A DNA stretch of 64,000 bases, taken from assembly GCA_965153355.1 (NCBI GenBank), contig OZ231126.1, positions 13,764,001 to 13,828,000 of the forward strand. The letters run 5' to 3'. The notes below the pieces were generated by a model. It was not told where the DNA came from. It saw only the letters and a program-made list of their open reading frames with translations, and ran no database searches. Within the stretch, counting starts at the first letter, position 1. Each line of letters starts with the position of its first letter. The position numbers and the translations under genes are program-made. The DNA comes from Flaccisagitta enflata (lineage: Eukaryota). Shown one piece after another: positions 5,382-9,600 of the stretch.

Positions 5382-6665
5382 TATGTATGCATTATGCAAG
5401 ATGATTCTTTTGACCTTCAAAATATAAAAAAGACGAAAAGAGAACTTTGTGACGGAGCGACAGACAGACCGACGGCCAGAGTGACGTTTAAAGTCGTTAA
5501 GCACGCAACTTTAAGAATTCTCATGAAAATCTGTAAGAAACGCCACCAAACGAAACCACAACTGCAACTGCATTTTCTGACTCAAATCGTTTGAAAATGG
5601 AAAGAAAATCAGAATTGATATTCCAATTGAAAAATGGCAGAACCTTTTCCTCTAGTTTTTGATAATTTTTGCTCCTTTTTTTCCATTTTTCCAATAGCCT
5701 AAATCCAGTTGAAGATGTTTTTAGTCGCGTGCTACGTGACCCCACCTCGCTATGTCGGTCCGTCGGTCGGTTGGTCGGTCGGTCGGTCGGTACAATAACT
5801 ACGCCGTGCAACATGACCAATTGTGGTTGCAAAAGGGAGCAAATGAAAGTTCATGGGAACACATACACTTCAAACTAAACATTTGTCTAAAAACGATTAG
5901 AAAACCAATAATCAGGGGGTCGTTGAAAAGGCTTGATTCAATTGGAGCATCTGAAAAAAAGAATTACCTCCAAGCAATTTTCATGTACCATCTGTATAAT
6001 TGGAGGCCCATCTACTTGCAAAATTAATTTGGACTTGATCTGGTCGGGACGTCGTCAATGCTGTAGTTGTATTGAATATCTTTGCAGAAATTTCTCTCAC
6101 AATTACAGCAATCAATTCTATACAACTACAGCATTGATAATGTTCTGACTAGATGAAGTCTAAATTGATTTTGCAAGCAGAAAGACCTCTAATTCTGCAA
6201 ATGGAACACGAAAATTGCATGGAGACGAACTTTTTTTCTAAAGCCCAAGATGAGCTCAGCCTACAGTTGAAGCCTACCGAGTGCAGAAACAGAACTTGAG
6301 AGATCTATTTGAAATCTCTTTACAGTTAAGTAAACTAATTCTATTTTTGTCAATCACTCGTGGTCATAGGCACCTTGAGGGCTGTTGCACTAAAACTTTT
6401 ATGCGTTGTGAGAAGATTTGCAAATGAAAAACTGACAGAGGAACCTTTAGTGAATAGTGTGACTGATAGTTTCTAAGTTTCATGTTCAGGAGTCAGAACA
6501 TCATTGATCAATTTCCACTTCGATTGTTTTTCCTTGCTTTCCACTATCTCAGAAAAAAATTCAATCGGTAAAAACATCAACTGTGATCGTAGTCAACATC
6601 AACATCAATATCAATCGTAATTTTGTGTTGGAATGAAACCAACAACAACAACGACAACGACAACG

Positions 6666-9600
6666 ATGTGTTGGACGTGGATGATCTTCTCGTATTTCTT
6701 CCTTTCTCTCCTCTCTGCATCTTGTGCTGATGATGTGCTTGAAAATCGTACTGTTTACGTCCTGTATACTGGTAAGCTGAAATTTTGATGTGTGCATGCT
6801 ATGCAACTCTCTAGACTTATAAGCCACTTTTTAGTCGCGTGCTACGCGACTCTACACCCCGCTATGTCGGTCCGTCGGTCCATCGGTCCGTCGGTCCGTC
6901 CGTCCGTTGGTCCGTCCGTCCGTCACACTTTACTTTTTTTGGGTTTTTGCGGTTTTTGGCCCCACTGCTCCTGCCCAAATGATCAAGTGACCTCAAATAC
7001 GGCCCCTGCCCCCCCGCACGCGACTGGGGTAACCGTGTATCCGGCCTTGTTATTCCGCTTGTCGGTCGGTCTTGGGTTGCCGTCACAATTGCTGGATGCT
7101 GAGTCAACACCGATTATAAGCACTACTGTCAAAGTGCCCAATTGGCAACTCCCCCCCCCCCAATATCAGGACTCTTCAACTCTATTTTATCTCTCAGTGC
7201 AAACTTTTAGAATACAGTATGATTCATCTCGTTTGTAACATTTTATGAGGACGTAACTCAAAAAATAATAGAGATAATTGAATTCTGAAAAATGTTCCTG
7301 AAAGATAGTGTTAATGCATTTTATGATATGTGACTCCCAGGATTGAGCTACAGATACCAGATTGGACTCAAATGGAAGGTATTTTGAAGTAGTTTTTGGG
7401 ACAACTTGAGTTGAAATGCTCATTTGATGTTTCAGATTGATTTGTGAACCGTGAATCAACTCTTGATAATAGTTTTTGTCGAGACACCAATTTTTTTCAT
7501 GGCTGATGTGATCTTTCATTGAAGAAAAATTTCCCTGTTTGTATTTCTTAAAACTAAAGTAAATTAGCTTTAATTTGAGACTAATCTGGTATTTGTAGCT
7601 CAATCCATTTAGAATTAGGAGTAATTTAAAGAAAAGCTGTTCTGCCAAAAACCTGAAATAATGGTGTTTTTTGCTGATTTTGAACAACATTCTGTCATTT
7701 GTCAAAAAGGTATAGATTTTTGTAAAAAAAGTCCTAGGAATTACACATAATAAAATGCATCACCATCAGCTTTAAGGAACTTTGTTCAGAATTCAATTAT
7801 TTCTGTTATTTTTTGAATTATGTCCTCATCAAATGTTACAAACGAGATGAAACATACTGTAGCATCTGTCCAAACAAGGCCTAGTCGCGTGCGGGTGGGC
7901 AGGGGCTGTGTTTGAGATCACTCTTATCCGGCCTTGTTTAGGGATAAAATCAATGTATGGTTCCCAGAAATTTTAAGGAAAATTAAAACCCACATAAAAT
8001 TTTAGGTGGAACGATTGGAATGCAGAAGAACTCTGAAGGAAAACTGGAACCTGTCCGGGGTTACCTTGAAAAAAAAATGAGACAAATCCCTTTCTTGAAT
8101 GGCGCGGTAAGTCTTCCACTATTTCCAACAAGCCAAACACAGGGCAACTGTAGCATGCTTTGTGTATACACACTTGATAATTTGATTGCATGCAATGCAT
8201 GGTTACATATTTTGATTTAATGATAGCATAATACAATCACATAATTACTCAATTACTCAATTACATAACTACTATCTAGAACATAAGTATATCGACAGTA
8301 TGGGGATTGGTAAATTTAACAGTATAGGAATCATAGAAAAACCGCCAAAACATGTCAGATACTTAATAATACGTCTTTGGGCTTCAACACATATTTGTAC
8401 GTGGATTTTCTAAGCACCTTAACTCAAATGCTTTGTATAAATGCATGATAACCATCCCTCATATAAATTTTTTTTTTTAAATTCCTTAGTGTATGCCATG
8501 TTCTCCCTTTTGCTTCAGTTGCAATCCCGATGATTCAGAGAGGTTGAAATCAACGAAGATAATGTAGCAAAGGTGTTAGGCGCTGTAATTAGGACCAAAA
8601 ATAGGGTGGAAAAAAACCTCCAATCTATCTGAAAGGAGACTTAGTAACTTGTAAAGAAACTAGATGCATTTTTTTGGCCATTTTCTAATTGAAGTATCAA
8701 ACTTGTTTTGCCTGTCAATACTAAACGCCTTGAGCTAAAAGGATGCGGTTTGCGGCATTTGGTCAGAAATTCGAAATAGTTTCAGAATCTCACTGATTTT
8801 TATATAAATTTTTTATTCTTAACAGAGTTATTGCTTAAAATGCCTGTCGATATACATATGTTCTAGATAGTAAATAAACAAACATAATAACCAAACATAC
8901 TTAAGACGATAAAAAATGACTTAAAATGACTTGAAATAACCAACGATGACTTTCTCTACAAAAAACAGTGGGATCGATGGATAGATGGTCGGATGGATGG
9001 ACAGATTGACAGGCGGATGGATTGACGGACGGACGGACTAACAAAGCGGGATGTTAATAGTCTTAACTTAAGACATTCAAAATTAACTAAGAACCAATGT
9101 ATTCAAATCTGGCCAGTTGCGACTCTACAGCATCCTGAATTATAAAGCTTGCCAGTTACACTGAGATGTTATGTTTTTAAACCTCTATCTTACACAGATA
9201 ACAGATAATCAAACTATGACGGAGACTTTGCCACTGGCACTGCCAAAATATGACTACAAAGTGGATGCCAACCGTACAATCATTTTGGAAATTGCATACA
9301 CAATAGAGGAGCTTCCTGAAGTGTTGGACTCCAGCACCATGACCATGGGAGATTGGGACAAGATTGCGACAAAGATCCAAGACAAGTAAGTTGGATAACC
9401 GGGTGTGCACAAACAAGACCAAATACATGGCTACCCCAATTGGGTGCTTCACATAGCAAAATTTGCTTATTTCTTTTCATCCTCTTGACCTAATGTGGAG
9501 TGGCCAATTTTAGTACCCTTACCATTTTTCTTTTATCAAAAATCGTTCATCTTCTGTTTTCAAGAAAATTGTTTTTGAGAGCCTAATTTGTACATTGCAG

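What the first reader, a model, noticed from the sequence alone, without database searches (positions are those of the whole stretch)
6633..6771. Type I asparaginase with an apparent secretory signal peptide
Seen: exon 1 encodes [36 protein letters not shown], a hydrophobic core ending in small residues (S-C-A) just before the catalytic domain. The mature chain has six N-glycosylation sequons (NRT, NQT, NRT, NSS, NKS, NIS). Established: animal ASPG / 60 kDa lysophospholipase and bacterial AnsA type I enzymes are described as cytosolic, without signal peptides. Inference: a secreted animal type I asparaginase, possibly for extracellular asparagine depletion (immunity, symbiont control, digestion) and of therapeutic-enzyme interest.
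Basis: partly seen in the sequence, partly recalled or inferred. Interest (0 to 1): 0.78.

Follow-up and report, generated by a model that had tools for sequence, protein, structure and literature searches.

The report
Asparaginase gene with a secretion signal
An intact nine-exon animal gene encodes an asparaginase of a normally cytoplasmic family, but with an unavoidable signal-peptide-like start and no ankyrin tail, so the enzyme probably works outside the cytoplasm.

Summary
All introns are GT-AG, and the product is 422 aa with intact catalytic motifs.

The hydrophobic start cannot be spliced or read around. The only AG in 6560-6771 lies upstream of an in-frame TAA at 6618. All three in-frame ATGs (6633, 6666, 6681) precede the hydrophobic core. 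No other exon in the 8 kb upstream can supply the essential first beta-strand.

The protein is type I and of the eukaryotic ASPG kind: 40-46% identical to animal ASPG domains, and it carries their insertion. It has no ankyrin repeats and sits on a long, unresolved branch.

Of 311 homologues with whole N-termini, 2 have a hydrophobic leader, and only one (P0308) looks like a signal peptide.

Secretion is inferred, not shown. No signal-peptide predictor, RNA data or orthologous exon 1 could be obtained. The six sequons are weak evidence. The low cysteine count is mildly supportive. Simple-repeat DNA in this window produces similar hydrophobic starts in 2-10% of open reading stretches.

Verdict: a new variant of a known family, moderately interesting.

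The parts
6618..6620 (+). In-frame TAA that closes the reading frame upstream of the first ATG
   Evidence: The codons between it and ATG 6633 are TTT TGT GTT GGA.
6633..6728 (+). Putative signal peptide, residues 1-32. The n-region is [12 protein letters not shown]. The hydrophobic core runs about W14-S28. The c-region is A29-S30-C31-A32. Alternative starts lie at 6666 (Met12) and 6681 (Met17).
   Evidence: The highest 15-residue Kyte-Doolittle mean of the whole protein (1.73) lies at residues 17-18. The 19-residue maximum is 1.42.
6729..6771 (+). Rest of exon 1: predicted mature N-terminus DDVLENR, sequon N38, and the first beta-strand TVYVLYT that leads into the catalytic Thr motif. Phase 1 donor gtaagc.
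   Evidence: It is the only phase-1 donor preceded by [YHFN][TSA] in 1-8005.
8006..8106 (+). Exon 2: the rest of the Thr-nucleophile motif (T49) and the flexible loop
9198..9385 (+). Exon 3: eukaryote-type insertion and the LDSS substrate-binding motif. Sequons at N84 and N105.
10567..10733 (+). Exon 4: the GTDTM motif (T156, D157), with Met154 in place of the usual His
   Evidence: Pfam Asparaginase 4.2e-22. NCBIfam. PDB..
11789..11967 (+). Exon 5: the RGNRASK motif with catalytic Lys233
   Evidence: Pfam Asparaginase 5.4e-10..
12245..12467 (+). Exon 6: start of the C-terminal subdomain. Sequon at N269.
   Evidence: ENA genomic ORF fragments P0121 (89% identical) and P0122 (66% identical) appear to share its boundaries, judged by eye from their sequences.
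12983..13085 (+). Exon 7: the NISQC motif. Sequons at N344 and N351.
13601..13692 (+). Exon 8: the [11 protein letters not shown] helix of the C-terminal subdomain
16142..16218 (+). Exon 9: the LRGE tail and TGA stop. No KDEL-type or hydrophobic C-terminus. AATAAA/ATTAAA signals at 16531 and 16580.

Best explanation
This is a functional nine-exon gene for a short, ankyrin-free, ASPG-type (type I) L-asparaginase. Its only possible N-termini carry a cleavable ER signal peptide.

Inferred mechanism:
1. The nascent chain is taken to the ER by the hydrophobic core (about W14-S28).
2. It is oriented N-in/C-out by the charge difference across the core: K2 and the amino terminus on one side, D33, D34 and E37 on the other.
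3. It is cut after S30-C31-A32.
4. The 390-residue catalytic domain (D33-K422) is released into the lumen and may be N-glycosylated at some of six sequons.
5. With no retention signal or C-terminal anchor, it most likely leaves the cell as a soluble enzyme. It would hydrolyse asparagine to aspartate and ammonia through T49, T156/D157 and K233.

Shown: the gene model, family membership, intact catalytic motifs, the unavoidable hydrophobic N-terminus, absence of ankyrin repeats, and the rarity of such leaders among relatives.

Inferred: targeting, cleavage site, glycosylation, secretion and enzyme activity.
For: Gene model:
- 9 exons, all GT-AG, 422 aa, no internal stop.
- Single copy in the window.
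- The exon 6 orthologue is kept at 66% identity, apparently with the same boundaries (by eye), in a more distant relative.

No way round the leader:
- The only AG in 6560-6771 is at 6591, upstream of the in-frame TAA at 6618.
- The in-frame ATGs at 6633, 6666 and 6681 all precede the hydrophobic core.
- No other candidate for the beta-1 exon exists in 1-8005.

Leader features:
- The highest 15-residue hydropathy of the protein falls here.
- The 19-residue mean is 1.42. That is below the roughly 1.6 classically asked of a membrane span (a recalled threshold), which favours a cleaved peptide over an anchor.
- Small residues sit at -3 and -1, with acidic residues at +1 and +2.

Family:
- 40-46% identity over residues 41-421 to animal ASPG domains, and 36-40% to bacterial AnsA.
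- Type I models beat type II models.
- The gap from the Thr motif to the DSS motif is 72 residues. The median is 69 in eukaryote-type proteins and 42 (range 34-56) in bacterial ones.
- It falls inside the eukaryote-type clade, separated by a 100/100 branch from four gammaproteobacterial AnsA.
- Catalytic motifs are present.

Other support:
- Leaders are rare in relatives: 2 of 311.
- Only 2 Cys in the domain, against a minimum of 3 and a median of 6 in 112 animal homologues. This fits an oxidising compartment.
- No ankyrin match from four ankyrin-bearing ASPGs anywhere in the 64 kb at E up to 1.
- No Pfam ankyrin in 150 of the 235 ORFs of 60 aa or more.
Against: - No signal-peptide predictor was available. 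The call rests on rules recalled from the literature and on hydropathy.
- No orthologous exon 1 was found, so conservation of the leader is untested.
- Hydrophobic Met-started stretches are common in this repeat-rich DNA: 27 of 277 by my crude rule, or 6 of 277 without simple repeats. The leader is coded by a pyrimidine tract.
- Sequon enrichment is modest: 5 in the domain against a mean of 3.4.
- 21 of 99 cytoplasmic bacterial AnsA also have 2 or fewer Cys.
- The His-to-Met change in HGTDTM is nearly unique: 386 of 388 homologue motifs have His. It could mean altered or lost activity.
- The long branch (0.95 against a median of 0.35) is also what a decaying gene would show.
Confidence: 0.6

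Rival explanations
1. The hydrophobic segment is an uncleaved signal anchor. The enzyme would be a type II membrane protein with its catalytic domain in the lumen or on the cell surface (an ecto-asparaginase), not a soluble secreted protein.
For: About 20 uncharged residues (C13-A32) follow a polar Thr run, which is long enough to span a membrane. Cleavage was not predicted by any tool.
Against: The 19-residue hydropathy mean is only 1.42, and the segment is rich in Ser, Thr, Tyr and Trp. A good small -3/-1 site is followed by two Asp residues.
Confidence: 0.13
2. The signal peptide is real but the enzyme stays inside the endomembrane system, for example in a lysosome, digestive vacuole or storage granule. 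It would act on asparagine there rather than outside the cell.
For: The same evidence as for entry into the ER. Sequence alone cannot separate the destinations. Lysosomal sorting depends on glycans, and the protein has six sequons.
Against: There is no KDEL-type end, transmembrane tail or other sorting motif at the C-terminus. That absence is weak evidence.
Confidence: 0.12
3. The leader has no function. The gene would be a silent or decaying duplicate whose original first exon was lost, and the hydrophobic start would be a chance reading of a pyrimidine-rich 5' region.
For: Chance hydrophobic starts occur in 2-10% of open stretches in this window. The gene has the longest end branch in the tree. 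The near-invariant His is replaced by Met. There is no expression evidence.
Against: Nine exons with eight canonical introns and no frame break over 9.6 kb. All catalytic motifs are kept. Exon 6 is kept at 66% identity while its flanks are not alignable in P0122, judged by eye.
Confidence: 0.12
4. It is a bacterial AnsA acquired recently by horizontal transfer, or it is contaminating bacterial DNA.
For: Exon 4 is 73-76% identical to gammaproteobacterial AnsA. In one careful tree the protein paired with a long-branched Bacteroidetes sequence (UFBoot 64).
Against: Eight spliceosomal introns. The eukaryote-type insertion. Higher whole-length scores to animal ASPG, 260-312 bits against 229-256. 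A 100/100 separation from gammaproteobacterial AnsA once the long bacterial row is left out.
Confidence: 0.03

Closest known systems
Animal ASPG / 60 kDa lysophospholipase (human Q86U10, guinea pig H0W0T5; PDB 9S7Z, 4R8K, 5DNE)
   Same: Type I asparaginase N- and C-subdomains. 40-46% identity over the whole catalytic domain. The eukaryote-type insertion between the Thr motif and LDSS. The catalytic Thr, Thr-Asp and Lys motifs.
   Different: No C-terminal ankyrin repeats. A hydrophobic signal-like leader instead of a polar N-terminal extension. Met for His in HGTDTM. Only 2 Cys. A much longer branch.
Bacterial cytoplasmic L-asparaginase I (AnsA; E. coli PDB 2P2D/2HIM, Vibrio 2OCD, Yersinia 3NTX)
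   Same: The same short single-domain length class without ankyrin repeats. Exon 4 is 73-76% identical. The best NCBIfam model is NF006998.
   Different: Cytoplasmic and without a leader. Lacks the insertion of about 30 residues. The window gene has eight introns.
Periplasmic or secreted type II asparaginases (E. coli AnsB; the fungal and yeast cell-wall enzymes are recalled, not tested here). Secreted asparaginases of Campylobacter jejuni and Mycobacterium tuberculosis appear in search listings only.
   Same: What it probably works like: an asparaginase exported by an N-terminal signal to act on external asparagine.
   Different: A different subfamily. The type II models score only 28.8 and 27.5 bits on exon 4, against 84.9 and 77.4 for the AnsA and type I models.
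P0308, an unnamed 404-aa eukaryote-type asparaginase from the representative library
   Same: Short form with Asparaginase N and C domains only. N-terminus MAKMLEATLFLVISCTTALF precedes the first beta-strand. Six sequons. The Atlas model's fold matches begin at residues 24-25.
   Different: Only 42% identical to the window protein. Keeps His in the motif. Has 6 Cys. Its origin is unknown. The Atlas neighbours are mostly arthropod, which is a lead only. A common origin of the two leaders is neither shown nor rejected (AU p 0.996).
Guinea pig serum L-asparaginase activity
   Same: A precedent for an ASPG-type enzyme acting in an extracellular fluid. gpASNase1 is called the main agent of the serum's lymphoma-killing capacity (PMC5443537, passages).
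   Different: The guinea pig protein has the ankyrin tail (PMC12177098, passages). Whether it has a signal peptide could not be checked, because the primary paper PMC4246078 is not held.

Membership tests
Type I L-asparaginase (AnsA/ASPG catalytic domain) | Pfam Asparaginase N-terminal (PF00710) plus Asparaginase_C (PF17763) domains | tested here: met
   Tested exon by exon only. PF00710: exon 4 at 4.2e-22, exon 5 at 5.4e-10. PF17763: exons 6-8 at 0.0075, 7.5e-5 and 1.2e-5, each below the whole-protein cut-off on its own. The spliced protein aligns over residues 41-421 with proteins that carry both domains.
Type I L-asparaginase (AnsA/ASPG catalytic domain) | Scores higher on type I models than on type II models | tested here: met
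   Exon 4: NF006998 84.9 bits and TIGR00519 77.4 bits, against TIGR00520 28.8 and NF008304 27.5. Exons 5, 6 and 8 hit only type I or GatD models. In the PDB, type I entries score 1e-19 to 4e-21 and type II entries about 1e-4. The whole spliced protein could not be submitted, so the curated cut-offs are untested.
Type I L-asparaginase (AnsA/ASPG catalytic domain) | Catalytic motifs: TGGT (Thr nucleophile), DSS, GTDT, RGNR..K | tested here: met
   LYTGGTIGM at 44, VLDSSTM at 122, VLMGTDTM at 152 and RGNRASK at 227. Exception: Met154 replaces the His found in 386 of 388 homologue motifs.
Animal ASPG / 60 kDa lysophospholipase | Eukaryote-type insertion between the Thr motif and the DSS motif | tested here: met
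   The spacing is 72 residues. The eukaryote-type set has a median of 69 (n=199). The bacterial set has a median of 42, range 34-56 (n=104).
Animal ASPG / 60 kDa lysophospholipase | C-terminal ankyrin repeat domain | tested here: not met
   The stop codon follows directly after the LRGE tail. tblastn with four ankyrin-bearing ASPGs finds no ankyrin part in the window at E up to 1. No ankyrin Pfam hit in the 150 of 235 long ORFs scanned. Short ankyrin-free forms also exist in Lingula and salmon.
Animal ASPG / 60 kDa lysophospholipase | Cytoplasmic, with no hydrophobic leader | tested here: not met
   The window protein has an 11-residue hydropathy window of 2.12 before the first strand. Only 2 of 311 homologues reach 2.0.
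Eukaryotic cleavable ER signal peptide | Short n-region with net positive charge | tested here: met
   With ATG 6633: K2 plus the amino terminus, and no acidic residue before D33. With ATG 6666: the amino terminus only.
Eukaryotic cleavable ER signal peptide | Uncharged hydrophobic core of roughly 7-15 residues, shorter and less hydrophobic than a membrane span | tested here: met
   The core is about W14-S28. The 15-residue mean is 1.73 and the 19-residue mean is 1.42. The thresholds are recalled.
Eukaryotic cleavable ER signal peptide | Small uncharged residues at -3 and -1, with no Pro around the site | tested here: met
   S30-C31-A32 followed by D33. Other nearby sites (after S28 or A29) are also possible.
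Eukaryotic cleavable ER signal peptide | Positive call by a trained predictor, and cleavage or secretion shown by experiment | not testable with these tools
   No SignalP, Phobius or DeepLoc is on hand.

The most novel reading that the evidence does not exclude
An invertebrate lineage has turned the cytoplasmic ASPG enzyme into a secreted, N-glycosylated, cysteine-poor extracellular asparaginase. It did so by losing the ankyrin tail and recruiting a signal peptide from pyrimidine-rich non-coding DNA. With the unrelated-looking P0308 this may have happened more than once in animals. That would give natural eukaryotic type I asparaginases already adapted to extracellular fluid, used for depriving microbes, symbionts or parasites of asparagine, or for digestion.
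Probability: 0.35. Interest if true: 0.62.

Novelty: new variant of a known kind. Interest (0 to 1): 0.45.

Why it matters
Type I (AnsA/ASPG) asparaginases are treated as cytoplasmic enzymes. The exported asparaginases used in leukaemia therapy and in food processing are of type II. A natural eukaryotic type I enzyme built for the secretory pathway would matter in three ways.

- It would show that this family can change compartment through a simple change of its first exon.
- It would offer a template for human-like asparaginases that fold, glycosylate and survive outside cells. This bears on the old question of how an ASPG-type activity comes to be in guinea pig serum.
- It would point to extracellular asparagine depletion as a physiological tool in an invertebrate.

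If the leader proves non-functional, the finding is an ordinary divergent paralogue.

Tried and rejected
- **Own genome.** Not held, so the search for a canonical ankyrin-bearing paralogue could not be made.
- **Names of unnamed proteins.** The organisms of P0280, P0308, P0121 and P0122 stay unknown, and so does the window's own taxon. Rfam gave 0 matches in the window.
- **Orthologous exon 1.**
  - The first try was too short.
  - The 55-aa open frame 6621-6785 found no relative in metagenome contigs: 596 pattern matches, none confirmed.
  - Exon 6 found only 4 weak loci in metagenomes and 2 in prokaryote genomes. All were short or 38-71% matches of bacterial type.
- **Whole-protein profile search.** Aligning the nine exon peptides to a full-length guide scattered them (alignment A1). 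I abandoned it and used a profile of three ankyrin-free homologues instead.
- **Phylogenetic placement.**
  - The quick 127-row tree put the window protein beside P0280 (SH-aLRT 96).
  - That tree proved 147.6 log-likelihood units worse than a constrained one, so I withdraw that sister relation.
  - The careful 65-row tree paired the protein with a long-branched Bacteroidetes row. I read this as long-branch attraction.
  - Only the 49-row careful tree (16 of the 65 rows left out) is used. It leaves the position inside the eukaryote clade unresolved.
- **Independent origin of the window and P0308 leaders.** Not decided (AU p 0.996).
- **Sequon enrichment as evidence of secretion.** Judged weak.
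- **P0341.** Its very hydrophobic stretch abuts the first strand in an ankyrin-bearing protein. I treat it as a doubtful gene model or anchor, not a signal peptide.
- **Literature.** Eight searches found no paper on a signal-peptide-bearing ASPG or type I asparaginase of an animal. Schalk et al. 2014 (PMC4246078) is not held. No supplements were consulted.
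Full report
**What is there**

The window is eukaryotic DNA, about 34-48% G+C and full of microsatellites and a repeated element.

On the + strand, 6633-6771 is open from a TAA at 6618-6620. It reads [12 protein letters not shown], then [35 protein letters not shown], and ends at a gtaagc donor in phase 1.

Eight further exons follow:
- 8006-8106
- 9198-9385
- 10567-10733
- 11789-11967
- 12245-12467
- 12983-13085
- 13601-13692
- 16142-16218

Every intron is GT-AG with a pyrimidine-rich acceptor. 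The joined CDS is 1269 nt: 422 codons, no internal stop, and TGA at 16216-16218. Poly(A) signals lie at 16531 and 16580. tblastn of the spliced product finds exactly these nine pieces and no second copy in the window.

**Can the hydrophobic start be avoided?**

No, on three grounds.
- Exon 2 begins inside the catalytic Thr motif. It therefore needs an upstream exon that ends, in phase 1, with the first beta-strand. Position 6771 is the only phase-1 GT donor in 1-8005 preceded by a [YHFN][TSA] pair in an open frame.
- Within 6560-6771 the only AG is at 6591, upstream of the in-frame TAA at 6618. No acceptor, cis or trans, can bring in another reading frame.
- The in-frame ATGs are at 6633, 6666 and 6681, and all precede the hydrophobic core.

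Any product with a whole asparaginase fold therefore starts with this leader.

**What the protein is**

Exon peptides match Pfam Asparaginase (exon 4 at 4.2e-22, exon 5 at 5.4e-10). They match Asparaginase_C weakly (exons 6-8).

On NCBIfam, exon 4 scores 84.9 bits (AnsA equivalog) and 77.4 bits (type I), against 28.8 and 27.5 for the type II models. Exons 5, 6 and 8 hit only type I or GatD models.

Against solved structures, exon 4 is closest to L-asparaginase I of E. coli, Vibrio and Yersinia (1e-19 to 4e-21). Human 60 kDa lysophospholipase (1.4e-13) and guinea pig asparaginase (1.2e-12) come next. Type II enzymes score about 1e-4.

Inside scripts, the spliced protein aligns from residue 41 to 416-421. 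Identity is 40-46% with animal ASPG domains (260-312 bits) and 36-40% with bacterial AnsA (229-256 bits).

It carries the eukaryote-type insertion. There are 72 residues between the Thr motif and DSS. The median is 69 in 199 eukaryote-type proteins, and 42 (range 34-56) in 104 bacterial-type ones.

The catalytic motifs are present (T49, S125/S126, T156-D157, K233). There is one oddity: Met154 stands where 386 of 388 homologue motifs have His.

There is no ankyrin tail.
- The stop follows the LRGE tail directly.
- Four ankyrin-bearing ASPGs find no ankyrin part in the 64 kb at E up to 1.
- 150 of the 235 ORFs of 60 aa or more gave no ankyrin hit. These were the ORFs in 1-6145 and 16720-51319. 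The 85 others were not scanned.

**Phylogeny**

The placement is only partly resolved.
- A quick 127-row tree put the protein beside the ankyrin-bearing P0280. That tree was later shown to be 147.6 log-likelihood units below a better one, so I do not rely on it.
- A careful 65-row tree paired the protein with a long-branched Bacteroidetes row (UFBoot 64).
- With that row and 15 others left out, a careful 49-row tree places it inside the eukaryote-type clade. That clade is separated from four gammaproteobacterial AnsA by a 100/100 branch. Within the clade it sits in an unresolved polytomy, with the longest end branch (0.95, median 0.35).

It is therefore a fast-evolving member of the ASPG lineage, and eight introns rule out a recent bacterial import. 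No annotated close relative exists in the protein collections. Exon 6 found only two genomic ORF fragments, at 89% and 66% identity. In the 66% fragment the exon is kept, apparently with the same boundaries, while the flanks are not alignable. I judged this by eye, and it speaks for constraint.

**Is the leader a signal peptide?**

The layout fits.
- A polar n-region with K2.
- An uncharged core of about 15 residues (W14-S28). The 15-residue Kyte-Doolittle mean is 1.73, the highest in the protein. The 19-residue mean is 1.42.
- A c-region with S30 and A32 at -3 and -1, followed by D33, D34 and E37.

The charge difference across the core would put the catalytic domain in the lumen. The modest 19-residue hydropathy favours cleavage over anchoring. 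Both rules and their thresholds are recalled, not computed by a predictor. Cleavage at A32/D33 would leave seven residues before the first strand, much as in bacterial AnsA.

**Comparative support**

Of 390 stored homologues, 311 have a Met start and the Thr motif. Only two of these have an 11-residue window of 2.0 or more before the first strand.
- P0308 is a 404-aa ankyrin-free form whose start MAKMLEATLFLVISCTTALF also looks like a signal peptide. The Atlas model's fold matches begin at residues 24-25.
- P0341 is an ankyrin-bearing protein with an odd, very hydrophobic stretch abutting the strand.

The three ankyrin-free Lingula forms and the salmon form have polar starts.

The domain has 2 Cys, fewer than any of 112 animal homologues (minimum 3, median 6). 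21 of 99 bacterial ones have 2 or fewer.

**Evidence against, or weak**

- Sequons: 5 in the domain against an animal mean of 3.4, and 6 of 112 homologues have 5 or more. Shuffling the mature chain gives 1.87 on average, and 6 or more in 0.5% of shuffles. But cytosolic relatives are enriched too, and NIS at 351 sits in a family-wide N-x-T motif.
- By a crude rule of my own, 27 of 277 other Met-started open stretches in this window look signal-like. Six remain after setting aside simple repeats. None of 382 Met-started homologues pass. The leader could thus have arisen by chance from the pyrimidine tract that encodes it. That would explain its origin but does not remove its effect.
- No RNA evidence, no predictor and no orthologous exon 1 could be had.

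**Literature**

Eight searches found no report of an animal ASPG or type I asparaginase with a signal peptide.

Passages read:
- gpASNase1 is held to be the main agent of guinea pig serum's lymphoma-killing capacity (PMC5443537).
- The guinea pig enzyme has the ankyrin tail (PMC12177098).

The primary guinea pig paper is not held. Secreted bacterial asparaginases (Campylobacter, Mycobacterium) appear in a search listing only.

**Verdict**

The most likely reading (0.6) is an ASPG-derived, ankyrin-free type I asparaginase that enters the secretory pathway through a cleavable signal peptide and is probably secreted.

Rivals:
- An uncleaved anchor (0.13).
- An endomembrane destination (0.12).
- A non-functional or silent gene (0.12).
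- A bacterial origin (0.03).

It is a new variant of a known kind, with interest 0.45.

Noticed in passing
window 10594-10596 (Met154 codon in exon 4): The His of the HGTDTM motif is Met here. 386 of 388 homologue motifs have His, and the only other exceptions are one Gln and one Leu. The effect on activity is unknown.
   Followed up: partly
window 13090-13560 (intron 7): A microsatellite of about 470 bp made of CAA/CAG/ACA-type units. It is open in several frames as poly-Q, poly-N and poly-T on the + strand, and as poly-L, poly-V and poly-C on the - strand. It lies inside the intron, not in the coding sequence.
   Followed up: no
window 6640-6665 and 6595-6620: The Thr run after the first ATG is coded by an ACA/ACG trinucleotide repeat. 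Similar CAA/CAT repeats lie just upstream. Length changes in steps of three would alter only the n-region of the leader.
   Followed up: no
window about 6830-7060, 16780-16950, 17290-17560, 19700-19830, 20110-20300, 22480-22620 and others, both strands: A dispersed repeated element with a GTCCGTCCGTCC core. It translates as ...[15 protein letters not shown]... followed by ...[22 protein letters not shown]... It recurs many times in the window, including in intron 1. No Pfam or Rfam match.
   Followed up: no
window 19366-19830 and 19724-20275: Two tandem copies of a unit of about 400 bp. Each holds a long (CA)n/(TG)n microsatellite flanked by the same sequence.
   Followed up: no
window 10922-11029 and 12433-12999: TCATTCATTCA-type simple repeats, read as [11 protein letters not shown] in several frames, in introns 4 and 6.
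   Followed up: no
P0123, P0125, P0126 versus P0124 (Lingula anatina): Lingula has several ankyrin-free ASPG paralogues (397-472 aa) beside an ankyrin-bearing one (679 aa). Three of these share a 327 kb contig. None has a hydrophobic start. Loss of the ankyrin tail alone is thus not tied to a signal peptide.
   Followed up: partly
P0341 (545 aa, unnamed): An ankyrin-bearing ASPG-type protein with the stretch MLIFIFIIFII directly before the first beta-strand (11-residue hydropathy 3.74). It could be a membrane anchor or a gene-model artefact in an A+T-rich genome.
   Followed up: no
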